DNA of 64,000 bases from the sequence record NC_010583.1; one strand, written 5' to 3'. A program made the position numbers and the translations under genes. The notes below the pieces were generated by a model that saw only the letters and a program-made list of their open reading frames with translations, did not search any database and had not been told where the DNA came from. Numbering within the stretch: the first letter of the stretch is position 1; each line of letters opens with the position of its first letter. This document shows positions 1,032 to 24,204 of the stretch, one piece after another. The DNA is from Escherichia phage Eps7.

Positions 1032-1040
1032 AAAATTTAT

Positions 1041-1929: not shown

Positions 1930-1948
1930 TTCCTTATTTTGAGTTAAT

Positions 1949-2021
1949 TGGTACTCGGTGATAGAATCGAACTATCGCAACCGCCGTGTAAAGACGGGGT
2001 TCTCCCATTAAACTAACCGAG
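1949..2021 (-). tRNA. tRNA-Val (anticodon UAC; tentative)
   Basis: T-arm gatag/aatcgaa/ctatc, acceptor actcggt/accgagc, anticodon arm ccgcc-gtgtaaa-gacgg. Confidence 0.55.
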
Positions 2022-2026
2022 CAATT

Positions 2027-2104
2027 TGGTGGATTGCCTGGGATTCGAACCCAGAACTGACGGATTAAAGGTCCGCTACTCTTATCCAGTTGAGCTAGCA
2101 ATCC
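2027..2104 (-). tRNA. tRNA (anticodon not resolved; possibly Lys UUU)
   Basis: T-arm ctggg/attcgaa/cccag, acceptor ggattgc/gcaatcc perfect; anticodon arm ambiguous. Confidence 0.5.
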
Positions 2105-2490
2105 AATTTTTCTACTAATAATTTAAAAGCATCTAGTACAGGTACTTCAAACCATTCTCCAGATACTCTATAATCTTTAAGAAGATTATGTAATTCTTTC
2201 TCTGTACGTCTTTTATCCGACGAAAATCTGAAATGGTATAGCTTGTAGTCTCTATTAGGTGAATAAGTTTGATAACTTGTTAACCTCTCATTCACATCTA
2301 TAGTCATACCTATTTTATACATGCCTGGCCATGCTGGATTACCAATTACATATACAAAACCTTCCGTTATAGGTATTTTATGCTCCCTTTTATACTTTAA
2401 GAGATTTAAGGCTGCCATTCGATAACAGAATCTAAACTCTGAAGTTTTTAACTTACCTTCTTTACCTGAAATTTCGTTATATTTGCTCAT
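2095..2490 (-). CDS. GIY-YIG-like (T5orf172-type) domain protein
   Basis: Motifs GFVYVIGNP...YKIGMT...R...Y...E resemble the GIY-YIG/T5orf172 nuclease fold; embedded in tRNA cluster. Confidence 0.5.
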   Translation of the reverse strand: MSKYNEISGKEGKLKTSEFRFCYRMAALNLLKYKREHKIPITEGFVYVIGNPAWPGMYKIGMTIDVNERLTSYQTYSPNRDYKLYHFRFSSDKRRTEKELHNLLKDYRVSGEWFEVPVLDAFKLLVEKLDC

Positions 2491-2556
2491 ATAAGCTCTT
2501 ATGAGCTTATCATCTATAATGAAGTTATCAGGAAGGTTTAAGGCAGCTAAAAACTT

Positions 2557-2721
2557 TATTAATTAGCATAGACTTCCTTAATAGAATAAACTTTTAAGTT
2601 AAGGTGATTAATACCAAATTCCGCCATCACTTCGTTTTCATCTTTACCGTAATGGGCTAGTGGATACTTCTTACGATCTTTGCTAGAACGTAGATCACTT
2701 ACTTTTAAACGAAATAATTTC
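2557..2721 (-). CDS. hypothetical small protein (54 aa)
   Basis: ATG-initiated ORF MKLFRLKVSDLRS... found by manual translation; below the 60-aa ORF-track cutoff. Confidence 0.3.
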
Positions 2722-2743
2722 ATTTCGAAATCCTTCTATTAAA

Positions 2744-2820
2744 TTGGAAGCGGGTGCAGGAATCGAACCTACCTCTTTCTAGCTTATGAGACTAGCGATC
2801 TCTACCAGAGATCTAACCCG
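2744..2820 (-). tRNA. tRNA with CAU anticodon (Met or Ile-lysidine; tentative)
   Basis: T-arm gcagg/aatcgaa/cctac, acceptor agcgggt/acccgca, anticodon arm ctagc-ttatgag-actag. Confidence 0.55.
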
Positions 2821-2827
2821 CAATTGT

Positions 2828-2906
2828 TTGGTCTCCGTGGGAGGATTTGAACCCCCCGACCCTATCGCCCCAAACGAAACGCTCTGGCCAAACTGAGCTA
2901 CACGGA
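2828..2906 (-). tRNA. tRNA-Pro (anticodon UGG; tentative)
   Basis: T-arm ggagg/atttgaa/ccccc, acceptor ctccgtg/cacggag perfect, D-arm gctc...gagc, loop ccccaaa. Confidence 0.55.
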
Positions 2907-2934
2907 GAATATTCTTTGTTAACTCACTTTATAA

Positions 2935-2992
2935 ATATATTATACAGAGAATTAAGCTAAATAGCAACTACATTTTTAATAAATTTACTTAT
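2935..2992 (-). promoter_or_regulatory. T5-type early promoter cassette driving tRNAs at 2744-2906
   Basis: RC shows -35 GTTGCT, spacer, -10 TATAAT, conserved leader; tRNA begins about 30 nt downstream. Confidence 0.55.
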
Positions 2993-3212
2993 TAGGTAAG
3001 TCACCGAGCTATCAACTCATGCTAGCGAAAGTTTGCGAGACCTTCTTTAAGTACTAGAACACACCCGCCGATGTGTCGGACTTACTTAATAAGTAAACTT
3101 TCGTTTACTTACACCTACCTGGTCGGGAGGATTTTCAGCGACTAGAACCGGCCGGAAACTCATCGCCTTGTTTATCTAGGAGTCCGTTCTCTAGGAAGCA
3201 GAAACCTAAATT

Positions 3213-3287
3213 TGGTGCGGTCGGAGGGAATCGAACCCTCAACTTCTGGTTGGCAACCAAAAAATTATACCTTTTAACTACGAACGC
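3213..3287 (-). tRNA. tRNA-Gly (anticodon GCC; tentative)
   Basis: T-arm gaggg/aatcgaa/ccctc, acceptor gcggtcg/cgaacgc, anticodon arm tctgg-ttggcaa-ccaaa. Confidence 0.55.
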
Positions 3288-3295
3288 ATAATAAG

Positions 3296-3500
3296 TCAAT
3301 CTAGGCAGGACTTGAACCTGCTATCACTTGTGCGGATTTACGAGAACCATTCTTTCACTCGAATCGAACGAGCTTCTACCCTCGGCAAGCTGGTGTCCCC
3401 TCTCCACCACGCTAGAATGATAATTAATGCCTGCTCCTTTGAATCAAGAAGTCCACCCCGGACTTTGGGTCTTTGCAGTACATCACGCTGCTCTGATGTT
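3296..3500 (-). other. tRNA-like elements (T-arm hairpins without complete cloverleaf); possible tRNA pseudogenes or small ncRNA
   Basis: Two strong T-arm-like hairpins (gcagg-acttgaa-cctgc at 3306-3322; actcg-aatcgaa-cgagc at 3357-3373) but no matching acceptor stem found by eye. Confidence 0.3.
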
Positions 3501-3576
3501 TGGTACACCCACTAGGACTTGAACCTAGAACCCTCCGCTTAAGAGGCGGTAGCTCTAACCATTGAGCTATGGATGT
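3501..3576 (-). tRNA. tRNA (possibly Lys, anticodon CUU)
   Basis: T-arm ctagg/acttgaa/cctag perfect, D-arm gctc...gagc, acceptor acaccca/tggatgt, loop ttaagag. Confidence 0.5.
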
Positions 3577-3654
3577 ATTATTATGTTTTGCAGTGCTCTA
3601 AATATAGACACTTCCCACGCGGTGGTTATCTATACCAGCGTCCTGCAAAAATTG

Positions 3655-3731
3655 GCGCGACCGATGGGATTCGAACCCACATTTTCTCCCGTGACAGGGG
3701 AGTACCATTACCAAGCCAGCCCCGATCGCAT
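3655..3731 (-). tRNA. tRNA-Asp (anticodon GUC)
   Basis: T-arm atggg/attcgaa/cccac, acceptor gcgaccg/cgatcgc, perfect anticodon arm ctccc-gtgacag-gggag. Confidence 0.65.
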
Positions 3732-3752
3732 AATTTATTTACTCAGTTTTGA

Positions 3753-3936
3753 GTTTTTCGATAGCTTCCTCAACCTCTTTTAGAGCTTCACGACGGGCAT
3801 TCTGTTGCTGCATATCTTGAATTAATGTCAGTTTTTGTTTTTAATTTCTTGATCCCAAACCTTAATATTATTAATCAGACTATCACGATCAGCTTCTAGT
3901 CGAGCAATTGCACGAGTTGTCATATCTATTTCCTCA
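3753..3936 (-). CDS. hypothetical small coiled-coil protein (about 60 aa, apparent frameshift)
   Basis: Two short adjacent ORFs (MTTRAIARLEADRD... and ...MQQQNARREALKEVEEAIEKLKTE) join across an A5CA5 tract; manual translation only. Confidence 0.25.
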
Positions 3937-4025
3937 GTTATTAATGAAAATGGTATCTGTGACTGAATTCAATATCAGTAATGATAGCTGGTTGGCTACC
4001 GGTTTACTTAACTCTACACAGAATA

Positions 4026-4108
4026 TGGCGGGCCGTGTAGGATTCGAACCTACGTTGTCTTTCGACATGGATTAACAGTCCACCGCCAAACCGCTTGGCT
4101 AACGACCC
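4026..4108 (-). tRNA. tRNA with 13-nt variable arm; anticodon reads GUU (Asn?)
   Basis: T-arm gtagg/attcgaa/cctac perfect, acceptor gggccgt/acgaccc, anticodon arm atgga-ttaacag-tccac, variable hairpin gtc-tttc-gac. Confidence 0.5.
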
Positions 4109-4115
4109 TAAAATT

Positions 4116-4191
4116 TGGACGACCGCATGAGATTCGAACTCACATAAGGAGGTTTTGCAGGCCTCCGCCTAAGCCATTCAGCCAACGGTCG
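4116..4191 (-). tRNA. tRNA-Cys (anticodon GCA; tentative)
   Basis: T-arm atgag/attcgaa/ctcac, acceptor cgaccgc/acggtcg, anticodon arm gaggt-tttgcag-gcctc. Confidence 0.55.
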
Positions 4192-4369
4192 AGTTATCTT
4201 GCTTTTCGAGATTAGTAAACTCTAGATCTTTAGAATGTCCTATAGATCTAGCATAATAGCCATCTCCAGCATCATAGCCTGACTTACCACACTCACACAT
4301 CTTAAACTCTCTATAACGAGTGAAAATATGTTCAGAACCACAACACTTAAATTTAACTAACATTTTCAT
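4178..4369 (-). CDS. Cys-rich small protein (63 aa), putative zinc ribbon
   Basis: KFKCCGSEH...CECGKSG cysteine pattern; 3' end overlaps tRNA by about 14 nt. Confidence 0.4.
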   Translation of the reverse strand: MKMLVKFKCCGSEHIFTRYREFKMCECGKSGYDAGDGYYARSIGHSKDLEFTNLEKQDNSTVG

Positions 4370-4608
4370 TTAACACGCTCCGGTAAATCTTCGAGTTTAT
4401 ATTGAGTAGCCACATTAGCAGCATCTAGTAACAAACCCATATGTTTAAGAATCCTAGTGATAGCTTCGCCTTCTGCTTCTTCTACAAAAGTGCGTAGTTG
4501 AATGAAGTCAATACCACCATCCATACCAGAGAAAATGTTAAGTAAGCGAAGCATTACCAGCTTACGTTCTTTTAATTCTTGTTCTGCCATGTTGCTTCTC
4601 CAGTTCAA
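4366..4608 (-). CDS. hypothetical protein (80 aa)
   Basis: ORF directly downstream of promoter cassette 4625-4672; ATGA overlap with next gene. Confidence 0.45.
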   Translation of the reverse strand: MNWRSNMAEQELKERKLVMLRLLNIFSGMDGGIDFIQLRTFVEEAEGEAITRILKHMGLLLDAANVATQYKLEDLPERVK

Positions 4609-4624
4609 TTTATGTAATAATTAT

Positions 4625-4672
4625 ACAGAACTTTAAGGATTTAAGCAACTACATTTTTCAGAAATTTGATGC
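4625..4672 (-). promoter_or_regulatory. T5-type early promoter cassette
   Basis: RC: -35 GTTGCT, -10 TATAAT, conserved leader. Confidence 0.5.
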
Positions 4673-4928
4673 CTTTCTTTTTCTTCTTATACTTCCACGT
4701 TAATGGATTCTGTCGATTATGAACGCTTGAGATCTTTGTCTCGTCAAATTTCTTCAATACCATGTAATCACACGCCAACTGCTCTAGTGGAATGGTTTCT
4801 CCATCAAAAGCATAAACATAAGGCTGTTGACTAGCACGATAATGATAGACTTTGTTAACTCTACGTTTCAGCGACTTATCCGCGCAGTAAATAAAGAAGT
4901 TTTCAGGATGCATCAGCATCTCCTTCAA
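4641..4928 (-). CDS. hypothetical protein (95 aa)
   Basis: ORF; lysine-rich C-terminus overlaps the downstream promoter cassette. Confidence 0.4.
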   Translation of the reverse strand: MKEMLMHPENFFIYCADKSLKRRVNKVYHYRASQQPYVYAFDGETIPLEQLACDYMVLKKFDETKISSVHNRQNPLTWKYKKKKKGIKFLKNVVA

Positions 4929-5011
4929 ATTGGTGCAACCTGTACGTAACGATCGTACCTCTTCTCCTTTTCAGGGAGACGCTAATCCATCTCAGCTAAA
5001 GTCGCAAATAT

Positions 5012-5088
5012 TGGCAAACCTACTAGGACTCGAACCTAGACCGTACGGTTTTGGAGACCGACATGCTGTCCAGTAACACTCTAGGAAT
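5012..5088 (-). tRNA. tRNA-Trp (anticodon CCA; tentative)
   Basis: T-arm ctagg/actcgaa/cctag perfect, anticodon arm acggt-tttggag-accga; acceptor pairing imperfect. Confidence 0.5.
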
Positions 5089-5096
5089 GCAGAAAT

Positions 5097-5172
5097 TGGC
5101 GTCCTGTGCGGGGATCGAACCCGCAAATCCTACCTTGAAAGGGTAGTGACTTTACCAGTTTGTCTAACAGGA
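5097..5172 (-). tRNA. tRNA-Glu (anticodon UUC)
   Basis: T-arm gcggg/gatcgaa/cccgc, acceptor gtcctgt/acaggac perfect, anticodon arm ctacc-ttgaaag-ggtag perfect. Confidence 0.65.
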
Positions 5173-5180
5173 CTTAAATT

Positions 5181-5271
5181 TGGTGTTGGATGATGGAGTC
5201 GAACCACCCGAGACCCTTCCGAGTCGGCAGATTTACAGTCTGCTTCGCTACCTCTACGATACTAATCCAAC
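5181..5271 (-). tRNA. tRNA-Tyr (anticodon GUA, type II)
   Basis: T-arm gatgg/agtcgaa/ccacc, acceptor gttggat/atccaac perfect, anticodon arm gcaga-tttacag-tctgc perfect, long variable arm. Confidence 0.65.
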
Positions 5272-5416
5272 ATATTTGAATGAAAAATAAGTCGGTTAAA
5301 CTCAAGGTGGAATATTTCAGGAAATCCTGACTTTACCCCTAAAAGCAACTCGCTTAGTTACTTCTCATTCAGATATGTTTTCCAAATTAGATAACTATTA
5401 TATCAAGTTTTGAAGG

Positions 5417-5452
5417 ACTGAGCAAGTCAAATTTTAAAGAACTTGCTCAGTG
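5417..5452 (-). terminator. intrinsic terminator hairpin (11-bp stem)
   Basis: actgagcaagt ... acttgctcagt inverted repeat immediately downstream of the 5462-5737 gene. Confidence 0.45.
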
Positions 5453-5461
5453 CTATATCAG

Positions 5462-5737
5462 TTACTCGAAGCTAGGAGTGACACTCAGTTTGAATGGAAG
5501 CTCGAACACTTCTTCATAATCATCATTGAGCGTAATTACACGACCTTCTAGCTTAGTCATGGTGATTTCGATATCAGCCTCTGCATCAGGAGCCATACCA
5601 GCTTCCACACATTTAGCTTTGACTTCCGGCAGAAGTTCTACATCGTAGAAATAAAGCCATTCAATCTCACCTTCCCAGCCACCCCAGGATTTACAAACAG
5701 CACTTTCAACACCAGTTGCAGTAACACGTTTTGACAT
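5462..5737 (-). CDS. hypothetical protein (91 aa)
   Basis: ORF downstream of promoter cassette 5775-5815. Confidence 0.5.
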   Translation of the reverse strand: MSKRVTATGVESAVCKSWGGWEGEIEWLYFYDVELLPEVKAKCVEAGMAPDAEADIEITMTKLEGRVITLNDDYEEVFELPFKLSVTPSFE

Positions 5738-5774
5738 TCGTTAACTCCTTCATCAATTTATATAACTATTATAG

Positions 5775-5815
5775 CAGAAATCTTAAGTAAAAAGCAAGTA
5801 CATTTTTAAAATTTC
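5775..5815 (-). promoter_or_regulatory. T5-type early promoter cassette
   Basis: RC: -35 CTTGCT, -10 TATAAT, conserved leader. Confidence 0.5.
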
Positions 5816-5827
5816 TGCTTGGAGGAG

Positions 5828-6034
5828 TTAAACTCCTGATTCTTCAGCCAGATCAAGCCCAACCAACGTGATTGCCATAATAGCCGCGCCATGTTCTTTC
5901 TCTCCTAGCTCTTTGGCTTGAGTGAGAATATTTAGGAACTGCTTTTGAAAATCTGCAACTTCTTCTGTCATGCCTGCTTCAGCAATAATTCCTTTCAGCA
6001 TAAAGCGTTGTGCCGTAATTTCAGGATTAGCCAT
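5828..6034 (-). CDS. hypothetical protein (68 aa)
   Basis: ORF. Confidence 0.45.
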   Translation of the reverse strand: MANPEITAQRFMLKGIIAEAGMTEEVADFQKQFLNILTQAKELGEKEHGAAIMAITLVGLDLAEESGV

Positions 6035-6185
6035 TTATTATCTCCAGTTATTTAGAATGTAAGCCAAACTTAGGATCATAGCGATCGTAAGTCGTACCAT
6101 TAGTTGAAGCCTTGATGCTATGAAAACGACAGTACATAAATTTACGTAGTGCTTTCTTAATAGCTTTCATTTTATTTCCTTAATT

Positions 6186-6262
6186 TGGTAGGGGTGGTGG
6201 GATTCGAACCCACAAAACCTGAATTTTAAGTCCAGTACCTATGCCAATTCGATTACACCCCC
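6186..6262 (-). tRNA. tRNA (anticodon reads UAA, Leu-like but type I; uncertain)
   Basis: T-arm gtggg/attcgaa/cccac perfect, acceptor aggggtg/caccccc, anticodon arm ctgaa-ttttaag-tccag. Confidence 0.5.
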
Positions 6263-6280
6263 ATGTAATCTTAGCGAATC

Positions 6281-6603
6281 TCTAAACCCTGGAAATATCG
6301 AGGGAATGGAGAGCCAACTTCAAAATTGATGCCCCAATTAAGTTCAACGAGTTCAGATTTATTAAGATCTAGGCCATTACCTTCAAAGATATAGCCGTAA
6401 ACCGCAGGGAACATAGCTGCTAGATCTTCCATATCGGAATGAGCATTGTGTTCTTCACGGAACTGCTCAACTCTTCAATAGAACTTTTCTAGGAGACTCA
6501 GGTACGATGAACGTTACCACATCAGTAGAATCATCGGTACGATACACCGTAGCTTGGAACAAGCCAACACCTAAAAGGTTTATTGCCGGAGTAGTAAAAA
6601 TAT
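6281..6603 (-). CDS. hypothetical protein (about 107 aa, apparent +1 frameshift near 6470)
   Basis: Two sub-threshold ORFs (MDIFTTPAINLLG... and ...EQFREEHNAHSDMEDLAAMFPAVYGYIFEGNGLDL...) in adjacent frames. Confidence 0.3.
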
Positions 6604-6608
6604 CCATC

Positions 6609-6794
6609 TTAGCCTCGCTCAATGTCTAGACAAATTGCATATTCAGGGTTGATACCAGTACCTTTACATGTAGGACATTCCCATTCTCTACAGAAAATAT
6701 CCCCAGGTTCTGCATCATCCTGCCTACCACTACCATGACAGTCCTTACACCGACATTCTTCTAATGCTTTCTTCATTTCATAGAATCTAGACAT
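6609..6794 (-). CDS. DnaJ-type zinc-finger mini-protein (61 aa)
   Basis: Two CxxCxGxG motifs (CKDCHGSG, CPTCKGTG) plus additional Cys pairs. Confidence 0.45.
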   Translation of the reverse strand: MSRFYEMKKALEECRCKDCHGSGRQDDAEPGDIFCREWECPTCKGTGINPEYAICLDIERG

Positions 6795-6811
6795 ATAGTC
6801 TCCTAGTTAAT

Positions 6812-6889
6812 TGGTGGCTCCCGGAGGATTCGAACCTACCTACCTTTCGCTTATGAGGCGACGGCTCATACCAAATGAGCTTGAGAACC
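6812..6889 (-). tRNA. tRNA with CAU anticodon (Met or Ile-lysidine; tentative)
   Basis: T-arm ggagg/attcgaa/cctac, D-arm gctc...gagc, anticodon arm ttcgc-ttatgag-gcgac. Confidence 0.55.
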
Positions 6890-6894
6890 AAATT

Positions 6895-6988
6895 TGGAGG
6901 AAGATGCCAGATTCGAACTGGCACACCGTGTCTCCACAGCTACTGGCTGTTTAGCAAACAGCTCCCTTACCTTTAGGGTTAATCTTCC
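6895..6988 (-). tRNA. tRNA-Ser (anticodon GCU, type II)
   Basis: T-arm gccag/attcgaa/ctggc perfect, acceptor ggaagat/atcttcc perfect, anticodon arm gctgt-ttagcaa-acagc perfect, long variable arm. Confidence 0.65.
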
Positions 6989-6999
6989 GAATTTATGAA

Positions 7000-7045
7000 T
7001 ATATTATACAGAAAATTTCGGCATTAAGCAAGTGAAATTTTACTG
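7000..7045 (-). promoter_or_regulatory. T5-type early promoter cassette driving tRNAs at 6812-6988
   Basis: RC: -35 CTTGCT, -10 TATAAT, conserved leader. Confidence 0.5.
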
Positions 7046-7336
7046 AACATTGCACTGATATACTTGTTTGATACGTGTCACTGACTTCTTAGTTGGGTTG
7101 ATAGAAGAACCCTGCCACCAACGTGATTCTGAGCTGAGAACAGCCCCAGGAACAGCTTGTTCTTTTGGCAGAACAATATCAAAACACTGTTCACCCATAT
7201 TATCTTTAATGTGCGACCAAATGTCTAGAGTAAATCGTTCTAGCTTATTACAAACTTGAACTTGACAAAGTTCCTGTTGTGGAGCAGCAAATACAGAAGT
7301 AGATACTAGAGTCAATGCAAGTACAATGCGTTTCAT
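7040..7336 (-). CDS. secreted/periplasmic protein with signal peptide (98 aa)
   Basis: MKRIVLALTLVSTSVFA signal peptide then Cys-containing mature part; the ORF-track MREESN prefix is read-through of the conserved leader. Confidence 0.5.
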   Translation of the reverse strand: MKRIVLALTLVSTSVFAAPQQELCQVQVCNKLERFTLDIWSHIKDNMGEQCFDIVLPKEQAVPGAVLSSESRWWQGSSINPTKKSVTRIKQVYQCNVQ

Positions 7337-7362
7337 ATTTGATTCCTCTCTCAAATTTATAA

Positions 7363-7400
7363 ATATATTATACAGAAATTTTCTATATAAGCAAGGTAAA
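7363..7400 (-). promoter_or_regulatory. T5-type early promoter cassette
   Basis: RC: -35 CTTGCT, 17-nt spacer, -10 TATAAT, leader ...TTTGAGAGAGGAATCAA then ATG. Confidence 0.55.
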
Positions 7401-7436
7401 AATTTATGTATATAGCCCTCTAAGCGAGGGCTATAA
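7398..7436 (-). terminator. intrinsic terminator
   Basis: Hairpin tatagccctc-taagc-gagggctata followed on the minus strand by a U-run. Confidence 0.5.
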
Positions 7437-7441
7437 CTACT

Positions 7442-8134
7442 TTATTTGTTAACGCGTACAAAGTATCCTTTATAGGCTCCCATAATAGAGTTACCTAAGA
7501 ATACTAGCCACATTGCTAGGATTGCATAAGATGCACCTGTAGATTGAGCAGTTACAAGCCAAATGTACACAGTACCAATGTTAATAGCAATCCAAATCAG
7601 CCATTGTTCAGCATATTGTTTGACCATAAGCCACATAGCAATCACACTACCTACCGCAGTAAATGCATCCAACATTGGGAATGGATCAGCCGTAGTAGCA
7701 AGGAAACTACCATAACCTAACGTGGCTACTGCTAAAATCCCTAGAGTCAGCAAAGCTTGAGCTTTTGTCAGAACTTTAGTTGGAACATCCGGCAGATTAC
7801 TTGGCTTATTTTTATGCCATAAGTACATTCCATAAAACTGCATAGGAACGTAGTATAGCAGGTTTAGTGCAGCGTTACCATAAAGATCTGCGTTTAAAGC
7901 TGTAATACCATATGTAAGAACACCCACTAAGCCCCAAATATAGTTGGAAACACGTCCTTTTGCAACCAGAATAACACAAACCACATTGGTTATTGCAGTA
8001 GCCCAATCTAGAGCTGTACCATTATAGTTTGCTAAACTAATAAAGGCGACTGCTATAAACAGCCACAGATATTCCAGAGGTTTCCAGTTTTTAAAGTCAT
8101 TTACGAGATAGTTAGTCATATTAAAACTCTCCAA
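7442..8134 (-). CDS. pnuC: nicotinamide riboside transporter PnuC-like membrane protein
   Basis: 230-aa polytopic membrane protein; GMYLWHK and VKQYAEQWLIWIAINI match PnuC signatures GWYAW and RKYVENWLLWVIINV. Confidence 0.65.
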   Translation of the reverse strand: MESFNMTNYLVNDFKNWKPLEYLWLFIAVAFISLANYNGTALDWATAITNVVCVILVAKGRVSNYIWGLVGVLTYGITALNADLYGNAALNLLYYVPMQFYGMYLWHKNKPSNLPDVPTKVLTKAQALLTLGILAVATLGYGSFLATTADPFPMLDAFTAVGSVIAMWLMVKQYAEQWLIWIAINIGTVYIWLVTAQSTGASYAILAMWLVFLGNSIMGAYKGYFVRVNK

Positions 8135-9176
8135 AGATAAAGTGATGAATCAGCCAGTCTACTGCGTTTACTGCTTCGTCCATACGAACTTTGTAGTCCG
8201 GAGAGTCGATGTAAACAGTACGCCCTTCAGGGAACTGATTTGGAAATTCTTTCTTCATCTGCTCGAACAGTTCAGAAGTAATTGAACGATCGGAGTTAAT
8301 ACGTAAACCATCATCTACCCACTTGACAGTAGGCGCTAGAACAATTACTAAATCGTAATGTTCTTCTTTTGCAATTGCTGTAACCACAGGGTTCTTACTA
8401 TGTTCATAAAGTCTGTGGTAGAACTCAGTAATAAAAGCATTTGTATCCACAAACATGATCTTATTTGCAGTACGTTTTGCTTCAAACTCTAGCTCTTTGT
8501 GTCTGAACGCAATTTTACTATAGTCTTCGCTGGTAAGCAGATTTTCGTTACCAACTAGATCAACTTCACAATACGTTCGGCCATATTCTTTTACCCACGA
8601 AGTGTTGTATAGCTTCGCAAGGTATTTTGTTAAAGTAGTCTTTCCTGAGCTTTCAGTCCCAATGATTACAACCTTACGCACGTAATCTTTACGAACTACG
8701 CTAGGAAGAAACTCCCAATACTTCATAAGATCATTACGAATCATTGTAGCTGAGATTGGAACACGAGTCCGATCAGAATCTACAATATAATGACCAAACT
8801 TCGGCAGATATTTCTTATATTCTGCATCATAGTCTAGTTCGCTAGAGAAAATGGTGATCTCAGGCAAATGTCCGTAATTTTCATTAAGGATTCTAGCATA
8901 TTCCGGCCAACCATTCGGATATTCAGGAATATCATCTTCAATAATGTACTCTACCGAAATGTGCTCAATATCCGCGTAAGTTTGTTCTAACCAACGAAGT
9001 CGATTCTTTAACTGTAATACTTCCTGATCACGTGTGTTCTGCTTATCCAGCCAACGATTATCATGACTAACTACAACAATAACTCGTTCACACATAGTTG
9101 CTGCTGTGTTTATTAGGTTAATATGACCACGCGTTAATGGCGCGAACTTACCAATTACTAGACCAGTCTTAATCAT
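8121..9176 (-). CDS. nadR: NadR-like bifunctional NMN adenylyltransferase / ribosylnicotinamide kinase
   Basis: N-terminal nucleotidyltransferase motif GKFAPLTRGH (HxGH), C-terminal P-loop GTESSGKTT; true start MIKTGL (track MREESN prefix is leader). Confidence 0.65.
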   Translation of the reverse strand: MIKTGLVIGKFAPLTRGHINLINTAATMCERVIVVVSHDNRWLDKQNTRDQEVLQLKNRLRWLEQTYADIEHISVEYIIEDDIPEYPNGWPEYARILNENYGHLPEITIFSSELDYDAEYKKYLPKFGHYIVDSDRTRVPISATMIRNDLMKYWEFLPSVVRKDYVRKVVIIGTESSGKTTLTKYLAKLYNTSWVKEYGRTYCEVDLVGNENLLTSEDYSKIAFRHKELEFEAKRTANKIMFVDTNAFITEFYHRLYEHSKNPVVTAIAKEEHYDLVIVLAPTVKWVDDGLRINSDRSITSELFEQMKKEFPNQFPEGRTVYIDSPDYKVRMDEAVNAVDWLIHHFIFGEF

Positions 9177-9202
9177 ATTTGATTCCTCTCTCAAATTTAT
9201 AA

Positions 9203-9250
9203 ATATATTATACAGAGAATTTAGCGTTCAAGCAATCGAATTTTTAAACT
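9203..9250 (-). promoter_or_regulatory. T5-type early promoter cassette (drives nadR-pnuC)
   Basis: RC: -35 ATTGCT, -10 TATAAT, conserved leader with GAGAGAGGAATCAA RBS. Confidence 0.55.
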
Positions 9251-9384
9251 TTTTAGTGGAAAAATCTCAAGGCATTTAGTGGTAGCACGTTGTTGCTACA
9301 ATAATAGTATATGTATTACTAAAGTAAATAAAGAATTAAATACTAAAGACCTTAGTTGAATAACTTATGGGCTTTTCTTTTGCC

Positions 9385-9428
9385 TTAAATACAGAAAAGC
9401 CCGCGCTCTCGGAGGAAACGCGGGCTTG
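9385..9428 (-). terminator. intrinsic terminator (possibly bidirectional)
   Basis: GC-rich hairpin aagcccgcg...cgcgggctt with flanking T/A runs. Confidence 0.5.
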
Positions 9429-9546
9429 GTTCGAAGATTACGTGTAACTATTACTTGTTACGCATATCCATGATCATTTGACCATCGTAGCCAGTACCAA
9501 CAACAGTCTGCGGTACACCACCTTGTATTTTTCAGCACGAAGCATT

Positions 9547-10395
9547 TCAAACTTCCAGCTGCTTCCAACGAATCATTTCAGGAGTAATGGTACGTTGCAG
9601 CGCGGCGTTAGCTTCAGCTTCTTTCTTAGCTGCGTACAGTTTAGCATCTGCGTCACGTTCGTTAGCTACTGCCATGTTTTCACGAGCAGAACGATCAGCT
9701 TCAGCTTGCTTAACTTTCTGCTGTGCTTCTTGTTCAACACGAGCCAATTCAGCTTTAGCGGCGTTAACTTGTTCTTCACGAACTTTTGTGTTTTGTACCT
9801 GTTCCATGATTACAGGTGGCAGAGTAATATCCTGAAGGAATACTTGCTTAACCGTGTAACCATAAGGACGCGCGTACTCTTCTACTTCTTGCTGAATAGC
9901 AGTTTGCAGTTGAGCCTGAATCTTAGCGTCGAACAGATCTTGTGCTTTTGGTACAGACTTACCAAACTCACGAATCGTAGATAGCATCTTCTCTTCAACG
10001 TACTTGTTCAGAGCTTGATCCTGAGTACCTGCGTTAACACGGTTCATAGGAGCTTTAGCACCATCAAACTGCAACATAACGGTAATGTCAACAGTGGACT
10101 TAAACTTATCCTGGCTAGGAACCTGAAGTTTATCCAGTTTCATGGAAATATCTTTCGTACTAAAAGTATCAAAAGAAGCAAATGGGTTAACAATATGGAA
10201 GCCTGGCAATACAGGATTAGGGCTAACTTTACCCAGGAAGGTTTGGGTCTTAACAGTACCATCCTGAACAACTGTGTAGGAATTGAGAGCCAGAATAAGA
10301 GCGCCAAGACCAACTACAGCACCAACACCCCAACGTTTGATAGTGCGAATTACTTTTTGCTCAGAAGTCAGTTCTTTAGTGTTTTTAGTAAACAT
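9547..10395 (-). CDS. SPFH/band-7 (stomatin/prohibitin/HflC-like) domain protein; C-terminus probably extends to about 9451
   Basis: N-terminal TM segment, SPFH-like core, Ala/Glu/Gln-rich coiled-coil tail; two in-frame stops within 30 nt flanking an open alternative frame. Confidence 0.6.
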   Translation of the reverse strand: MFTKNTKELTSEQKVIRTIKRWGVGAVVGLGALILALNSYTVVQDGTVKTQTFLGKVSPNPVLPGFHIVNPFASFDTFSTKDISMKLDKLQVPSQDKFKSTVDITVMLQFDGAKAPMNRVNAGTQDQALNKYVEEKMLSTIREFGKSVPKAQDLFDAKIQAQLQTAIQQEVEEYARPYGYTVKQVFLQDITLPPVIMEQVQNTKVREEQVNAAKAELARVEQEAQQKVKQAEADRSARENMAVANERDADAKLYAAKKEAEANAALQRTITPEMIRWKQLEV

Positions 10396-10406
10396 ATATT
10401 TCCTTA

Positions 10407-10607
10407 TTATTTAGAAGAGTTAGCTACTACAGTTACTTTAGTTGCAGAAATAAACAGGCTAGCATCCACAGCAAATTCAGGAGCTTTGATATCTCCATTA
10501 TGAAATATGACTATACCGGAGACTACTTCAAATGCTAGTGCTGTAACATCGGTGGTATTTACTTGTGAATGTTCACCTACTACTTTTACTATATATCGTG
10601 TTTTCAC
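10407..10607 (-). CDS. NfeD-like short OB-fold protein (66 aa), partner of SPFH protein
   Basis: Beta-rich 66-aa protein (YIVKVVGEHSQV...) immediately upstream of and co-oriented with the SPFH gene. Confidence 0.4.
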   Translation of the reverse strand: MKTRYIVKVVGEHSQVNTTDVTALAFEVVSGIVIFHNGDIKAPEFAVDASLFISATKVTVVANSSK

Positions 10608-10633
10608 TTTATTTTCCTAGCAGTTAATAAAAT

Positions 10634-10709
10634 TGGCCGAGGTGACAGGATTCGAACCTGCATAAAGGAATTTAGAAGACTCCTGCCTATCCCTTAGACT
10701 ACACCCCGT
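10634..10709 (-). tRNA. tRNA-Arg (anticodon UCU; tentative)
   Basis: T-arm acagg/attcgaa/cctgc, acceptor cgaggtg/caccccg, anticodon arm ggaat-ttagaag-actcc. Confidence 0.6.
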
Positions 10710-11791
10710 TTAGGTATTTTTAAGAACTCTTATAAAAGCTCTTAAAGATACCCGACGGTAGGTAGGGTCAGCCCCCTCAGATTAAGCTCTGCAGCCCTTC
10801 CGTCAGACAATATCTTCCAGTTTAAGTCAGGGTGACTTTGTGGTTATGTTCTCCGTATGTGAAGAACTCGGTTAGGCTTAGGTCATGACTCCCAGCCTAC
10901 TGCTGCCACTCAACAGGAATTATCGCGAATTACCTGTACTATTGGGCACCATTAGTGACATCTCTCATGTCAGCGTTTCCCACTCTCATATTCACGCGGT
11001 CTGTTAGAATCGCACCTCCGATTTTCGATGCGAAGCTGGATGCCTAGTCTCAGGTTAAACGGGGCACACACTAGGCAGTGATCCCGAGTTCCGAGTTTGG
11101 TTGAGGCCGTCAGGTTTCCTCGTGGTTTAGCTGTTTCGATTCTAACCTAATACTGATCAGGTGGCGTACCTCCTGAACCGTCATAGTATGTACTCCAGCA
11201 GCGAATGCTTATCCGGTATAAGCCCGAGTTATCCGATTCTTTCCAGAAGGAGCAGTAAAGCTCAATGTCAGCCTGTGAGCATCTGGCAGTGTTATCACAT
11301 AAGTCAGTTCGACACCCCACATTTTAGTGCCTGGTAGATCCCGAATGAAGCCCTCAGTCGTTAGACCTCCATCATTCATCAAAGATTTACGCTACCCACT
11401 ATTCGATGGACAATCGCCGCATTGTGGTATACATACGTTTTCACTTGCATCCTAGACGGGTCAGCGTTGAAAGTTATATGGGTTTCTCAAGCCCAACCTT
11501 CAGTCTTCTACCCCTGGGACACGCACCGTATTTCACACTGTGCCTAGCTCCTGTTGAGACCCATCGTTTTGTATAAATTAGAGAAGAGTTTAGAGGAGAG
11601 GTTTCAGACGCCTCATTTTACAAGAAGTCTCGAACCTATATTCGTTACTCTAGTCACTTGGCCGGATATACCGGACTGGACTCGGAACTCTAACAGGTGA
11701 TCATTCTTAACCCACCGACTCTATTCAGTGTCAGAAGCTATCACTAGGTGAATCGCTAAAGCTCACTCAGCGTAATCGGCTCGCTGTTCTC
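10710..11791 (-). ncRNA. candidate large structured non-coding RNA (about 1.05 kb), co-transcribed with tRNA-Arg
   Basis: No ORF of 60 aa or more in any frame over about 1.1 kb; stops dense in all frames; GC visibly higher than flanking genes; conserved promoter cassette at 5' end, tRNA at 3' end. Confidence 0.3.
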
Positions 11792-11838
11792 TAATTTATG
11801 AATCTATTATACAGAATTTTGGAACGTTTAGCAAATCA
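11792..11838 (-). promoter_or_regulatory. T5-type early promoter cassette driving the ORF-free region and tRNA-Arg
   Basis: RC: -35 TTTGCT, -10 TATAAT, conserved leader start; no ATG or RBS follows. Confidence 0.5.
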
Positions 11839-11842
11839 ATTT

Positions 11843-12474: not shown

Positions 12475-12520
12475 AATTTATGAAAGTATTATACAGAAAT
12501 TTAAGGCTTTAAGCAATCGA
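12475..12520 (-). promoter_or_regulatory. T5-type early promoter cassette
   Basis: RC: -35 ATTGCT, -10 TATAAT, leader ...AATTAATGAGAGGAAG. Confidence 0.5.
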
Positions 12521-12524
12521 ATTT

Positions 12525-12992
12525 TTAAGTTTTCTTAACCACAGGCTTGTAGAACGTATGGCCTTGAATCTTCGTTGTTTTCTTAAACTTCTTTGTCCAG
12601 TACGGTTTATCTTTACCACTATGGAAGTATAACGCTCCATGTGTTGGATCTTGTGGTAAATCAACGTAGTATATCACTCTAGCTAAATTCTTAGCAACTT
12701 GCCAAGCCTCATCGGTTTTATCAACTTTTGGTCTCTTGGCCACCCAAGAGAACTGGTTAGACTGATATACTACTTTACAGTAAGAATCAGGAAAGTACCA
12801 GAGTTAACACGGTTTTTTAGTAACCTGTGCAACTGCGATCATTCCTTTAGTGCCCTCACCTCGTGCTTCGAAGTAGATATTTTTTGCAATGCAATCAATC
12901 TGCTTTGAGTCGTAGGTCGCATGACTATTGAAGCTATAGGTTAGGGCAGCTATTAAAAGCAAAGCTGCCTTCATTTTATTTACTCCGGCCAA
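12525..12992 (-). CDS. SleB/CwlJ-like cell-wall hydrolase with signal peptide (two apparent frameshifts)
   Basis: N-terminal signal peptide plus NIYFEARGE...AVAQV; middle ...NRVNSG.F.DSYCKVVYQSNQFSW and C-terminal ...ALYFHSGKDKPYW recovered across tracts at 12813-12818 and 12790-12791. Confidence 0.5.
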
Positions 12993-13297
12993 TCGTACTC
13001 AATACGATTAGGGCTTTCTTGATACCCTTCGTCTAAGAGATCATTACGCATGGTCTCTTTAGCTACTGGGTTCGAGGTTACTAGTACCACTTTCTTGGGT
13101 CTCTGACCAAATTCTAGGAGTAAACGAAGAATTTGATAACCTTCCATACCATCTACAGCCAGATCGTTATCCATATAAACGAAATGACCTGTGGTATCGG
13201 TTTTATTCAGAAACTCAATAGCGGCTTCGGGGGTTCGAATGATAATGTCCATTCCATGAAGGTTACGTACATCATCAATCAGAATATGAAAAATCAT
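12980..13297 (-). CDS. CheY-like receiver-fold protein (105 aa), function unknown
   Basis: Pattern ...IDDVRN...YMDNDL...G...KVVLVTSNP resembles a receiver (REC) domain. Confidence 0.4.
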   Translation of the reverse strand: MIFHILIDDVRNLHGMDIIIRTPEAAIEFLNKTDTTGHFVYMDNDLAVDGMEGYQILRLLLEFGQRPKKVVLVTSNPVAKETMRNDLLDEGYQESPNRIEYDWPE

Positions 13298-13323: not shown

Positions 13324-13372
13324 ATATATTATACAGAAAACTAAACTAATTAGCAAATACATTTTTAAATTG
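13324..13372 (-). promoter_or_regulatory. T5-type early promoter cassette
   Basis: RC: -35 TTTGCT, -10 TATAAT, conserved leader. Confidence 0.5.
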
Positions 13373-21811: not shown

Positions 21812-24204
21812 TTATAATTGACAACCACCAGATGCGCATCCAGCAGCAGCTTCCTCTCCTGCACCTCCACCATTTTCAGTGTTGAAGTTTGCATAATAAA
21901 AGGTTTTCCAACCGTACTTAACAGCAGTCATAAAGTCACGAACTACTACTGGGCCGGGAATGATTTCATTCTCGAACTTGGTGTAGTCATAGTACATATT
22001 CGTACTGATAGACTGGCTGAAGAATTTCTGCATGGTTGCTACCCATTTGATCCACTCGATACGATCTACATCATAAGCCAGTTTATAGCTCATTAATGTA
22101 TCCCAATCAGTTGCACCTGGAGCAATTGCAATTACTTTATTAACTGCACTACCCTTGATAGATACGATCTTACGGGGCGGTTCGATAGAGTTAGTAACAC
22201 CTAGCAGTACAGAGGAACTTTCACCTGGCATCTGAGCAGTCAGAACAGAGTTGCGCATACCATATTTCAGAATATCTGCACGCAGAGATTCCCAATCCAT
22301 TTCTAGACCTACAGTTACCAGTTCATCAACAGTTTTCTTGTACGTGTCGATTACCAGAGTTCCTTGCGAAGGCTTAGTACGATTAAACCAGTCACATGCA
22401 CCTTGTTCTTTAGCCAGACGTACAGAGGCTTTATGTAGGAAGTAGGACAGCTTTTCAGCTTCACGGTGAATCCAGTTACGTGCTTCAACACCTTCGTAAG
22501 CCAAACCTTCTGCTGCCATTGCACCTGCTGCGTTCATCAGACCAATACCAACGTTACGACGTTTCTTAGCCGTGTACTTCCATAGTTGGGAATGGGTAAT
22601 CCTGAATCTCGATGATTGTATCAACGAATTTCAGAAGGATGTAGCAAGTTTTCTCCCATTCAGCCAGAGATTCCATGCGGCCTAGTACAACACCACCTAA
22701 GTTACACAGAGATACTTCACCAATATCTTCTGGACGCATATCGTCTAACTGATCTTGGGTTTTATACAGTTCCGTAACGTGATGGAATGGACGGGTGGCT
22801 GAGTAATTCAACACAAAAGGGTTGGTCATACGAATCGGGTCAAGGAAGTTACCATGACGGTTAGATTCACCAATGTGATGAGCATACATACGCCCTGTTT
22901 CCATACGGATACGTAACCAAGTATCTAGGATTTCTTTTGCAGAGATTCTAGGAGCTGCTGGAATTGTTTTTCCTTCGTGGTCGATCTTTGTAAGAGAAGC
23001 CACACGTTTCTCCGCTGCCACGTAGATTTCTTCAAACTTAGCCTCATCTTCACCATAAAACGCTTCATGAACTTCTGGTGCGTAGAAGTAGGACATTAGC
23101 GTAATATCTTCGTTTTTCAGGTAACGTTTTAACAGAAGGTTGTTAAAGCTCAGAGAATAATCCATCTTATCGATTTTATTCTCGTCTGTAGCACGTTGCT
23201 GCTTAACCTGCATCAACTGAATGATTTCAGGATCGAAGTATGGATAAGACACAGTAGCAGAACCGCCACGGGTTTGCTGAGTGTTAGCTTTTACTGATCG
23301 GTCAATGTGTCGATAATATGGCAGTTTTCCGGAATGCGGGAATGCCCCATTTCGCACCGGATCAGCAATTGATCGGCTTTCAAGATGATACCCGATTCCC
23401 GCTCTGGCTGCGACCATTTTGAAGACGATGTGCTCGGCTGTGTCGATTGAATCCAGCGTGTCAGTGGAATCCACGAGACAGCAACTAGCAAATCCACGGT
23501 CACTAGAGCGCAGGCCAACCAGTGGCGGCGTAGGAACGTTGATTTTGTGGAGCGACATTGCATTGTAGAGGTCGATTGCATCTAGGATTGTCCAGTTAGG
23601 TTGAGATAACATCGCCATTGCCATACCCATGTAGGCAAACTGCGGGGTTTCATAAATTTCACCAGTTGCAATATTACGACGAGAATACTTGTCGAAGAAC
23701 TGTTTCAGTCCACCACTGGTGAATAAACGATCGCGATCATGATCAATAACTTGGTTCAGAGCGTCAAACTGATCATCGCTAATCCATGCACTCATGTCTT
23801 CCCAGCGCCAACACGAACCATATGATCGTGGAAGAAACGCAGAGAAGGGGTTCAAAGGAATCATATAGGCGTTTACGCATCTGCGCAAGACGTAATTCCT
23901 TTGCTACAGTATCATATGCTGGGTTGTCTTTGATAAGACCTTCAGCGGCTTTAATTAACACATCTTGGAGGGTATCGGAATCTACAACACCTTTTGGTAG
24001 ATTTTTCTGGGCAGACATAACGACGGCAGACCAACTTACGTCAGTTGCTTTACATGCCCATGCAGCCCAATCATTGAGTTTTTCAGGAGCAAAGTCCTGA
24101 ACAGTACCGTCACGTTTAATTACTTTTTCAATACTATGGCTCATTGGGGTTTCCTTTTTGTAGTTATCAGGATTTAGGAAATATTCTACTTTGTTTTGGG
24201 TCAT
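21812..24204 (-). CDS. nrdA: ribonucleotide reductase class Ia alpha subunit (three apparent frameshifts)
   Basis: ATP-cone N-terminus, catalytic core ...VIDHDRD..., ...RRNVGIGLMNAAG..., C-terminal CxxxGGC tail; fragments join at G4 tract 23847-23850 (restores FEPP), at 23799-23800 and near 22575-22581. Confidence 0.75.

What the first reader, a model, noticed from the sequence alone, without database searches (positions are those of the whole stretch)
12525..12992. Secreted SleB/CwlJ-like cell-wall hydrolase in the early region
After homopolymer correction the gene encodes a signal peptide followed by a SleB-type hydrolase domain (NIYFEARGE, NRVNSG, QFSW, ALYFHSGKDKPYW). A periplasm-targeted lytic transglycosylase-like enzyme expressed early, rather than a late endolysin, could serve DNA entry, superinfection exclusion or remodelling of peptidoglycan.
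Basis: partly seen in the sequence, partly recalled or inferred. Interest (0 to 1): 0.4.

Follow-up and report, generated by a model that had tools for sequence, protein, structure and literature searches.

The report
Known T5-family exported cell-wall hydrolase gene
This is the well-conserved, already annotated SleB/CwlJ-type cell-wall hydrolase gene of T5-like phages (orthologue of T5.083), which carries an export signal and looks broken here only because of two one-base homopolymer differences that are most likely sequencing errors.

Summary
On the minus strand, 12525-12974 (ATG at 12974, not the TTG at 12992) is a 450-nt gene. It is identical to the gene of more than 100 Epseptimavirus phages except for two 1-bp homopolymer indels 21 nt apart. 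These shift seven codons and create a stop at 12804-12806. With the indels corrected, the 149-aa protein has a Sec-type signal peptide followed by one complete Pfam Hydrolase_2 domain (E=4e-26). Its model has the SleB catalytic-domain fold, and its Glu36 aligns with the glutamate of the SleB "YGESRGE" motif.

It is the orthologue of T5.083 (89% identity, dN/dS about 0.1). It is co-transcribed with a cREC-domain gene from a conserved sigma-70 promoter in the early region, and lies far from the holin/M15-endolysin/spanin cassette.

The double-indel allele occurs in no other public sequence searched. Other conserved genes in the window are also frameshifted (nrdA three times), so assembly error is the likeliest cause.

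The gene is annotated in hundreds of genomes and noted in papers from 2012 and 2024. Its biological role is untested. An exported accessory muralytic enzyme is the best inference. A role in DNA entry is unlikely.

Verdict: real, ordinary, already known.

The parts
12525..12974 (-). Exported SleB/CwlJ-type (Hydrolase_2) cell-wall hydrolase gene, orthologue of T5.083. It is 450 nt / 149 aa once the two indels are corrected; as written it is interrupted.
12918..12974 (-). Codons 1-19: predicted Sec signal peptide MKAALLLIAALTYSFNSHA, with cleavage expected after SHA.
   Evidence: Hydropathy and -3/-1 rule by script. The N-terminal hydrophobic stretch is present in 86 of 93 homologues. No SignalP run.
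12867..12869 (-). Codon of Glu36 in YFEARGE. It aligns with the Glu of SleB 'YGESRGE', the presumed catalytic acid.
   Evidence: Alignment to 4F55/4FET; invariant in 93 homologues
12813..12818 (.). Homopolymer with one extra base (T6 on the + strand, A6 on the coding strand; relatives have 5).
12792..12794 (.). Homopolymer with one base missing (A3 on the + strand, T3 on the coding strand; relatives have 4).
12804..12806 (-). Premature TAA stop created inside the 7-codon shifted stretch.
12983..12986 (-). GGAG ribosome-binding site, 8 nt upstream of the ATG and inside the end of the upstream gene.
   Evidence: Read directly from the sequence
12980..13297 (-). Upstream co-transcribed gene (T5.084 orthologue), 105 aa, cREC_REC domain. 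Its stop lies 5 nt before the hydrolase ATG.
13328..13356 (-). Sigma-70 promoter-like site TTGCTA-17-TATAAT, conserved with the promoter annotated upstream of T5.084.
12488..12516 (-). Counterpart of T5 promoter P-D/E33 (TTGCTT-17-TATAAT), just after the hydrolase stop. It serves the downstream DUF7616 and YqeY-like genes.

Best explanation
Window 12525-12974 (minus strand) is the Epseptimavirus orthologue of phage T5 gene T5.083. It encodes a small (149 aa, mature about 15 kDa, pI about 9.7) single-domain member of the SleB/CwlJ (Pfam Hydrolase_2) family of peptidoglycan lytic enzymes.

Shown here:
- A full-length Hydrolase_2 domain and a SleB catalytic-domain fold.
- A conserved Glu36 at the position of the Glu in the SleB 'YGESRGE' motif.
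- A Sec-type N-terminal signal sequence.
- Strong purifying selection across T5-like phages.
- A position 5 nt downstream of a cREC-domain gene, behind a conserved T5-type sigma-70 promoter, in the early gene block next to tRNA and nucleotide-metabolism genes.
- A position far from the holin, M15 endolysin and spanin genes.

Inferred mechanism:
- The pre-protein is exported by Sec and the signal peptide is cut after Ser-His-Ala19.
- The two invariant cysteines (C28, C66) form a periplasmic disulfide.
- The enzyme cleaves glycan strands of host peptidoglycan with Glu36 as the single acid catalyst, i.e. lytic-transglycosylase chemistry as in SleB.
- It acts independently of the holin, as an accessory muralytic enzyme that loosens or remodels the sacculus and so supports lysis.

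The interruption in this window (one extra A and one missing T in homopolymer runs 21 nt apart) is most likely a consensus error of the assembly, not biology.
For: Family and fold:
- Pfam PF07486 at E=4e-26, covering the whole profile.
- phmmer to SleB catalytic domains 4F55 and 4FET at E=7e-9 and 3e-8, with E36 aligned to the Glu of YGESRGE.
- AF2 model with pLDDT 92.8. The top Foldseek PDB hits are 4f55 and 4fet only: probability 1.0, TM 0.72-0.78 normalised to target.
- Invariant C28, Y34, E36, G44, R55, C66, Q74 and H139 in 93 homologues.

Export:
- Signal-peptide features, with N-terminal hydrophobic stretches in 86 of 93 homologues and lipoboxes in 7.

Orthology and selection:
- 89% identity to T5.083 with the same neighbours.
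- dN/dS 0.097 between the T5 and Epseptimavirus alleles.

Expression context:
- The promoter upstream of T5.084 is conserved in the window.
- No lysis-cassette protein is encoded in the window, and in relatives the cassette lies beyond the tRNA block.

Related phages:
- A signal-peptide SleB-like homologue of Vequintavirinae-type phage CB7 was reported toxic when expressed in E. coli (stated as data not shown). The same paper says a CR3 homologue has been implicated in lysis (PMC7344957).
- Hydrolase_2 is a common catalytic domain of lysins from phages of Gram-negative hosts (PMC8223927).

Error reading:
- About 500 bp are otherwise identical to relatives.
- None of 439 phage records shares the allele.
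- The 41-mer spanning both indels has 0 hits in viral, genome and metagenome collections, against 2 hits in viral contigs for the intact version.
- nrdA is split by three frameshifts, a metallopeptidase gene is shifted, and a second compensating indel pair sits in the SPFH gene.
Against: - No enzymatic, localisation or expression data exist for T5.083 or its orthologues. Searches for the gene name found nothing.
[quoted passage not shown] Activity on host murein is therefore assumed, not shown.
- A freely active periplasmic murein hydrolase made early should cause premature lysis. Some restraint must exist and is not identified.
- The signal peptide was judged by heuristics, not by SignalP.
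- The disulfide is inferred from conservation alone.
- Three close +1/-1 indel pairs in the window are an odd error pattern. Most genes in the window are intact (35 of 40), so a real inactivating mutation cannot be excluded without reads.
Confidence: 0.72

Rival explanations
1. The two indels are real, so this phage carries a recently inactivated hydrolase gene. The product would be a 56-aa fragment (signal peptide plus the first helix) and possibly an unexported C-terminal fragment.
For: - The sequence as given contains the stop.
- Most genes in the window are intact (35 of 40 tested), so the assembly is not uniformly poor.
- The gene might be dispensable, because a canonical endolysin exists in relatives.
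Against: - There is no other nucleotide change in about 500 bp relative to more than 100 relatives.
- Both changes are length changes of homopolymers.
- The allele is absent from all collections searched.
- The same window has three frameshifts in nrdA and similar indel pairs in other conserved genes.
- The gene is under strong purifying selection in the lineage (dN/dS about 0.1).
Confidence: 0.18
2. The protein's main job is not lysis. Instead it acts early on the envelope: superinfection exclusion (altering peptidoglycan so that incoming phages cannot cross), support of DNA entry or transfer, or another remodelling role.
For: - Early-region position and holin-independent export.
- Exported Hydrolase_2 genes recur in early, replication or nucleotide-metabolism clusters of unrelated virulent phages that also have another annotated endolysin. 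Examples are JG004-type Pakpunavirus next to DNA ligase, Vequintavirus EmilHeitz directly upstream of rIIA/rIIB, and marine T4-like contigs between an HSP20 gene and the DNA polymerase gene.
Against: - There is no direct evidence.
- The gene enters the cell only with the injected DNA and I found no evidence that its product is in the virion, so it cannot help its own genome's entry.
- Relatives annotate a separate superinfection exclusion protein next to the receptor-binding protein gene.
- The canonical T5 lysis genes are also in the early region (PMC3326045), so position does not discriminate.
- A homologue in CB7-like phages is linked to lysis and toxicity.
Confidence: 0.15
3. The N-terminus is a signal-anchor-release (SAR) or membrane-tether segment, not a cleaved signal peptide. 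The enzyme would then be a second, membrane-restrained endolysin released on depolarisation by the holin.
For: - This would explain how premature lysis is avoided.
- Signal sequences predicted in lysins of Gram-negative phages are commonly interpreted as SAR domains (PMC8223927).
- The JG004 homologue has a longer, anchor-like N-terminal hydrophobic segment.
Against: - The h-region is short (about 11-12 residues) and rich in Leu and Ile rather than Gly, Ala and Ser.
- It is followed by a canonical small-x-small site (S-H-A).
- The gene is not near the holin.
Confidence: 0.12

Closest known systems
Phage T5 gene T5.083 (YP_006911; RefSeq 'endolysin') and its orthologues in Markadamsvirinae, annotated 'cell wall hydrolase SleB' or 'putative cell wall hydrolase'
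   Same: - 149 aa, 89% identity.
- Same neighbours: T5.084 cREC gene upstream, T5.082 and a YqeY-like gene downstream, then the rnaX region and tRNA-Arg.
- Same promoters.
   Different: Nothing except the two homopolymer indels of this window.
Bacillus SleB (spore cortex-lytic lytic transglycosylase; PDB 4F55, 4FET) and CwlJ
   Same: - Catalytic-domain family and fold, about 30% identity.
- The Glu of the Y-x-E-[AS]-R-G-E motif is conserved.
- Single-domain architecture, as in CwlJ (PMC12331253).
   Different: - No N-terminal peptidoglycan-binding domain.
- Fails the SleB equivalog model (54 bits against a 236.5-bit cutoff).
- Carries a signal peptide and an invariant Cys pair where B. cereus SleB has Leu and Ser.
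- The host has no muramic-delta-lactam cortex (my own knowledge).
- No YpeB partner.
Signal-peptide SleB-like hydrolases of Vequintavirinae and Certrevirus (e.g. CB7_83, CR3_087) and Pakpunavirus 'cell wall hydrolase'
   Same: - Exported Hydrolase_2 protein encoded apart from a classic lysis cassette, in phages that have other lytic enzymes.
- About 35-40% identity.
   Different: - Longer N-terminal regions.
- The EmilHeitz (Vequintavirus) homologue does not conserve the Cys pair.
- In CB7 a candidate holin overlaps the gene; no such ORF was identified next to the T5-type gene.
T5-type canonical endolysin (M15 L-alanyl-D-glutamate peptidase) with holin and spanins
   Same: A phage-encoded peptidoglycan-degrading enzyme, encoded in the early region (PMC3326045).
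   Different: - Different fold and bond specificity (peptidase versus glycan-strand cleavage).
- The canonical endolysin is encoded directly beside the holin gene and is expected to need the holin to reach the wall (my inference).
- The cassette lies outside this window.

Membership tests
Pfam Hydrolase_2 (PF07486; SleB/CwlJ catalytic domain) | Profile match above the curated gathering score over the whole domain | tested here: met
   92 bits against a cutoff of 27, E=4e-26, profile positions 1-100 of 100, on the corrected protein. The C-terminal fragment alone scores 30.9 bits.
Pfam Hydrolase_2 (PF07486; SleB/CwlJ catalytic domain) | SleB catalytic-domain fold | tested here: met
   AF2 model with pLDDT 92.8. 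Foldseek against the PDB finds only 4f55 and 4fet as significant hits: probability 1.0, TM 0.72-0.78 normalised to target, rmsd 2.3-3.0. The model was built from P0001, which differs from the corrected window protein by one residue (K123N).
Pfam Hydrolase_2 (PF07486; SleB/CwlJ catalytic domain) | Catalytic glutamate conserved | tested here: met
   E36 aligns with the Glu of YGESRGE in 4F55 and 4FET and is invariant in 93 homologues. The catalytic glutamate is reported as essential for SleB lytic transglycosylase activity (PMC12331253). That the aligned residue is that glutamate (E157 / E151) rests on my own numbering arithmetic and memory.
Pfam Hydrolase_2 (PF07486; SleB/CwlJ catalytic domain) | Lytic transglycosylase activity on peptidoglycan (1,6-anhydro-MurNAc products) | not testable with these tools
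   Needs purified enzyme and muropeptide analysis.
SleB proper (NCBIfam TIGR02869 equivalog) | Score above the equivalog cutoff; two-domain architecture with an N-terminal peptidoglycan-binding domain | tested here: not met
   54 bits against a 236.5-bit cutoff. Only profile positions 78-201 are matched. The protein consists of a signal peptide plus the catalytic domain only.
SleB proper (NCBIfam TIGR02869 equivalog) | Dependence on muramic-delta-lactam cortex and on the YpeB partner | not testable with these tools
   Neither the substrate nor the partner is expected in an enterobacterial host (established knowledge; PMC13556211).
T5.083 orthologous group of Markadamsvirinae | High identity over the full length and conserved gene neighbourhood | tested here: met
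   89% identity over 149 of 149 residues to T5.083. 100% identity to many Epseptimavirus proteins. Same flanking genes and promoters.
Sec-exported protein with a cleavable (SPase I) signal peptide | Basic n-region, hydrophobic h-region of about 10-15 residues, small residues at -3 and -1; no lipobox Cys | tested here: met
   MK / AALLLIAALTY / SFNSHA|T. The maximum 9-mer Kyte-Doolittle score is 2.99. There is no Cys before residue 28. This is a heuristic check only; SignalP was not available.
Canonical holin-dependent endolysin of a lysis cassette | Encoded next to holin and spanin genes; no secretion signal | tested here: not met
   Holin, M15 endolysin and spanins have no tblastn match in the window. 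In GreteKellenberger they lie about 22-25 kb from the hydrolase gene. The protein has a signal sequence.
SAR (signal-anchor-release) endolysin | Uncleaved, weakly hydrophobic N-terminal transmembrane segment of about 20 residues, rich in Gly, Ala and Ser | tested here: inconclusive
   The h-region is short, rich in Leu and Ile, and followed by an S-H-A cleavage motif. This argues against SAR, but only experiment can decide.

The most novel reading that the evidence does not exclude
Exported Hydrolase_2 enzymes could form a distinct, holin-independent early function shared by several unrelated virulent phage lineages of Gram-negative hosts: T5-like, Pakpunavirus, Vequintavirinae and marine T4-like phages. 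In all of these the gene sits in early, replication or nucleotide-metabolism clusters. The function might be programmed remodelling of host peptidoglycan, superinfection exclusion or counter-defence, rather than a redundant endolysin.
Probability: 0.15. Interest if true: 0.5.

Novelty: already known. Interest (0 to 1): 0.15.

Why it matters
For this window it matters little: it is a correctly recognised, widely annotated gene whose apparent fragmentation is most likely a sequencing artefact. The practical lesson is that this window contains frameshifting consensus errors and its ORFs should be read against relatives. The wider open question is why T5-like and other large virulent phages keep a strongly conserved, Sec-exported SleB-type enzyme in addition to a holin-dependent endolysin. 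That question is real and easy to test by deleting T5.083, but it does not arise from anything special in this sequence.

Tried and rejected
- Chance ORF or spurious motif match: rejected (Pfam E=4e-26).
- Programmed frameshift or functional compensated frameshift: rejected. The shifted 7-codon stretch contains a TAA stop, and the flanks are identical to intact relatives.
- SleB proper: rejected (equivalog score far below cutoff, no N-terminal domain).
- Lipoprotein: rejected (no lipobox Cys).
- Literature on T5.083 by name (T5.083, T5p083, YP_006911): 0 papers.
- The CRISPRi-ART preprint with a T5 genome-wide screen says nothing about this gene in its main text.
- The two SleB structure papers (PMC3415495, PMC3621120) are not held, so the residue numbers E157 and E151 rest on my arithmetic and memory.
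- A search for those residue names returned only irrelevant papers.
- Supplementary proteomics tables for the T5-like phage phiR2-01 are not held, so I could not check whether the orthologue is detected in infected cells or in virions.
- An Rfam scan of the adjacent ORF-free stretch found only tRNA-Arg.
- Functional link between the upstream cREC gene and the hydrolase: not supported. The pairing is absent in the other lineages examined.

Full report
**What the window is.** The window carries 21 tRNA genes at 183-10708 on the minus strand. It matches T5-like phages of the genus Epseptimavirus (Demerecviridae) at about 97% over 23 kb; the best relatives are Salmonella phages oselot and GRNsp8. 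The 701 bp around the finding match 439 phage records, 125 of them at 99% identity or more.

**The observation.**
- The gene lies on the minus strand. As written, the sequence gives two ORF fragments: 12804-12992 (62 aa, from a TTG) and 12525-12743 (72 aa).
- Translation shows NIYFEARGE, QFSW and ALYFHSGKDKPYW in one frame and NRVNSG in the neighbouring frame.
- Aligned with Escherichia phage GreteKellenberger and Salmonella phage faergetype, about 500 bp are identical except for two single-base length changes 21 nt apart.
- On the coding strand these are A6 instead of A5 (+ strand T-run 12813-12818) and T3 instead of T4 (+ strand A-run 12792-12794).
- The changes cancel, so the gene keeps 450 nt (12525-12974). 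The seven shifted codons include a TAA stop (12804-12806).
- The corrected product is identical to the 149-aa protein of many relatives.
- The real start is the ATG at 12974. It is preceded by GGAG (12983-12986) and lies 5 nt after the stop of the upstream gene.

**What the protein is.**
- The corrected protein matches Pfam Hydrolase_2 (PF07486) over the whole profile: 92 bits, cutoff 27, E=4e-26. It also matches PHROG 938, annotated 'endolysin'.
- An AlphaFold2 model built on 93 homologues has mean pLDDT 92.8. Its only significant Foldseek matches in the PDB are 4f55 and 4fet: probability 1.0, target-normalised TM 0.72-0.78, about 30% identity.
- Glu36, in YFEARGE, aligns with the Glu of SleB's YGESRGE and is invariant in the 93 homologues.
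- By my arithmetic on chain numbering, this is Glu157 (B. cereus) / Glu151 (B. anthracis). I recall these as the catalytic residues, but the primary papers were not available. A held paper confirms that a catalytic glutamate is essential for SleB's lytic transglycosylase activity (PMC12331253).
- The protein is not SleB proper. It scores 54 bits against the 236.5-bit cutoff of the SleB equivalog model and matches only that model's C-terminal part. It has no N-terminal peptidoglycan-binding domain.

**Export.**
- The N-terminus is MK-AALLLIAALTY-SFNSHA|TY: a basic start, a short strongly hydrophobic core (maximum Kyte-Doolittle 9-mer 2.99), and small residues at -3 and -1. There is no lipobox.
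- 86 of 93 homologues have an N-terminal hydrophobic stretch, and 7 have lipoprotein boxes instead.
- Two cysteines, C28 and C66, are invariant in these homologues. B. cereus SleB has Leu and Ser at the aligned positions.
- The mature protein would be about 15 kDa with a pI of about 9.7.

**Genomic context and timing.**
- The T5 orthologue is T5.083 (RefSeq product 'endolysin'), 89% identical.
- As in T5, the gene follows a 105-aa gene (12980-13297), the T5.084 orthologue, which has a cREC_REC domain (PF20274, E=4e-15).
- Downstream are a 56-aa DUF7616 gene and a YqeY-like gene, then an ORF-free stretch and tRNA-Arg.
- The promoter annotated upstream of T5.084 is conserved almost base for base in the window. 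The site is TTGCTA-17-TATAAT at 13356-13328, with an A/T-rich upstream element.
- No terminator-like site separates the cREC gene from the hydrolase gene, so the two are probably one early transcript.
- A counterpart of T5 promoter P-D/E33 follows the hydrolase stop.
- The holin, M15 endolysin and spanins of relatives lie beyond the tRNA block, about 22-25 kb away in GreteKellenberger. They have no tblastn match in the window.
- The canonical T5 lysis genes are themselves listed in the early region (PMC3326045). 'Early rather than late' therefore does not set this gene apart.
- 'Early' rests here on synteny and promoter conservation, not on expression data.

**Is the interruption real?**
- Evidence for an assembly error:
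  - The flanks are otherwise identical to many relatives.
  - Both changes are homopolymer length changes.
  - No phage record shares the allele.
  - The 41-mer spanning both indels has no exact match in the viral, genome or metagenome collections. The intact version has 2 matches in viral contigs.
  - Against oselot, the window has 14 isolated 1-bp indels with perfectly matching flanks. These include another +1/-1 pair in the SPFH gene (9525/9549) and a further pair at 14664/14693.
  - nrdA (797 aa in oselot) is split by three frame changes, and a metallopeptidase gene is shifted.
  - The gene is under strong purifying selection in the lineage: dN/dS 0.097 against T5.
- Evidence that it could be real:
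  - 35 of 40 compared genes keep one frame.
  - Close compensating pairs are an unusual error pattern.
- I put a real pseudogene at roughly 18%. Only reads can decide.

**How it most likely works.**
- Shown: the family, the fold, the conserved acid residue, the export-type N-terminus, the conservation, and the context.
- Inferred: Sec export, cleavage after Ala19, disulfide formation, and glycan-strand cleavage of host murein by lytic-transglycosylase chemistry, acting independently of the holin as an accessory muralytic enzyme that supports lysis.
- Indirect support:
  - Hydrolase_2 is a typical catalytic domain of lysins from phages of Gram-negative hosts (PMC8223927).
  - A signal-peptide SleB-like protein of Pectobacterium phage CB7 was reported toxic on expression in E. 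coli (data not shown in that paper). The same paper says a Cronobacter phage CR3 homologue has been implicated in lysis (PMC7344957).
- Caveats:
  - Ladybird Hydrolase_2 proteins limited B. subtilis but not E. coli when added externally (PMC7807722).
  - An unrestrained periplasmic hydrolase made early should lyse cells prematurely, so an unidentified restraint (weak activity, substrate restriction or a tether) must exist.

- DNA entry is unlikely. The gene product is made only after the DNA has entered, I found no evidence that it is in the virion, and (from my own knowledge) T5 has a muralytic domain in tape-measure protein pb2.
- Superinfection exclusion has its own annotated gene next to the receptor-binding protein gene in relatives.
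- 'Remodelling' remains possible.
- One comparative observation keeps a non-lytic role open. Homologues occur in 1362 phage records, and several unrelated virulent lineages place an exported Hydrolase_2 gene among early or DNA-metabolism genes:
  - next to DNA ligase in Pseudomonas phage JG004, a genus where a related phage lists both an 'endolysin' (ORF42) and this 'cell wall hydrolase' (ORF168);
  - directly upstream of rIIA/rIIB in Vequintavirus EmilHeitz;
  - between an HSP20 gene and the DNA polymerase gene in marine T4-like contigs.
- Both the JG004 and EmilHeitz proteins have hydrophobic N-termini.

**Novelty.**
- The gene has been annotated in T5 and in hundreds of relatives as 'cell wall hydrolase (SleB)' or 'endolysin'.
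- It was listed for T5-like phage AKFV33 in 2012 (PMC3326045).
- It was discussed as a second 'endolysin far from holin' with a SleB domain in T5-like Salmonella phages in 2024 (PMC11180984).
- I found no experimental study of it.
The fragmentation is most likely an artefact, and interest is low.

Noticed in passing
window 10709-11842: An ORF-free stretch of about 1.1 kb lies between tRNA-Arg and the YqeY-like gene. It corresponds in position to T5 'rnaX', annotated as a stable RNA of unknown function. Only two segments are similar to T5 rnaX by blastn (171 nt at 80%, 43 nt at 88%). Apart from the adjacent tRNA-Arg, no Rfam family matches. Relative oselot has an extra CDS (oselot_95) in this interval.
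   Followed up: partly
window 12980-13297 (-): The gene directly upstream of the hydrolase (T5.084 orthologue, 105 aa) has a cREC_REC 'cyclic-phosphate processing receiver' domain (PF20274, E=4e-15). It sits beside tRNA genes and a YqeY-like gene. The pairing with the hydrolase is not seen in the other phage lineages examined.
   Followed up: partly
window 21812-24204 (-): nrdA, the ribonucleotide reductase large subunit (797 aa in oselot), is split into three ORFs (270, 440 and 141 aa). The frame changes are near 22578, 23804 and 23848, in sequence that is otherwise 93-100% identical at the protein level.
   Followed up: partly
window 9525/9549; 14664/14693; about 15160: Further isolated 1-bp indels relative to oselot. 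There is a second compensating -1/+1 pair inside the SPFH/band-7 gene, a pair around the end of the metallopeptidase gene, and a frame change inside that metallopeptidase gene (T5.087 orthologue). The clustering of indels into close pairs is unexplained.
   Followed up: partly
window 24515-24845 (-): The phoH-like gene matches the oselot protein only at residues 1-19 and 159-250, in different frames. This suggests an internal deletion of about 140 codons, or a rearrangement.
   Followed up: no
L012 2336-2896; L013 2402-2902; L006-L008 4001-4417: Exported Hydrolase_2 genes recur inside early or DNA-metabolism clusters of unrelated virulent phages: Pakpunavirus JG004 next to DNA ligase, Vequintavirus EmilHeitz directly upstream of rIIA/rIIB, and marine T4-like contigs between an HSP20 gene and the DNA polymerase gene.
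   Followed up: partly
window 27829-28640 (+): The Sir2-like gene is only 52-84% identical to the oselot protein, with HSPs in two frames. Its neighbours are 98-99% identical. This suggests a locally divergent or exchanged segment.
   Followed up: no
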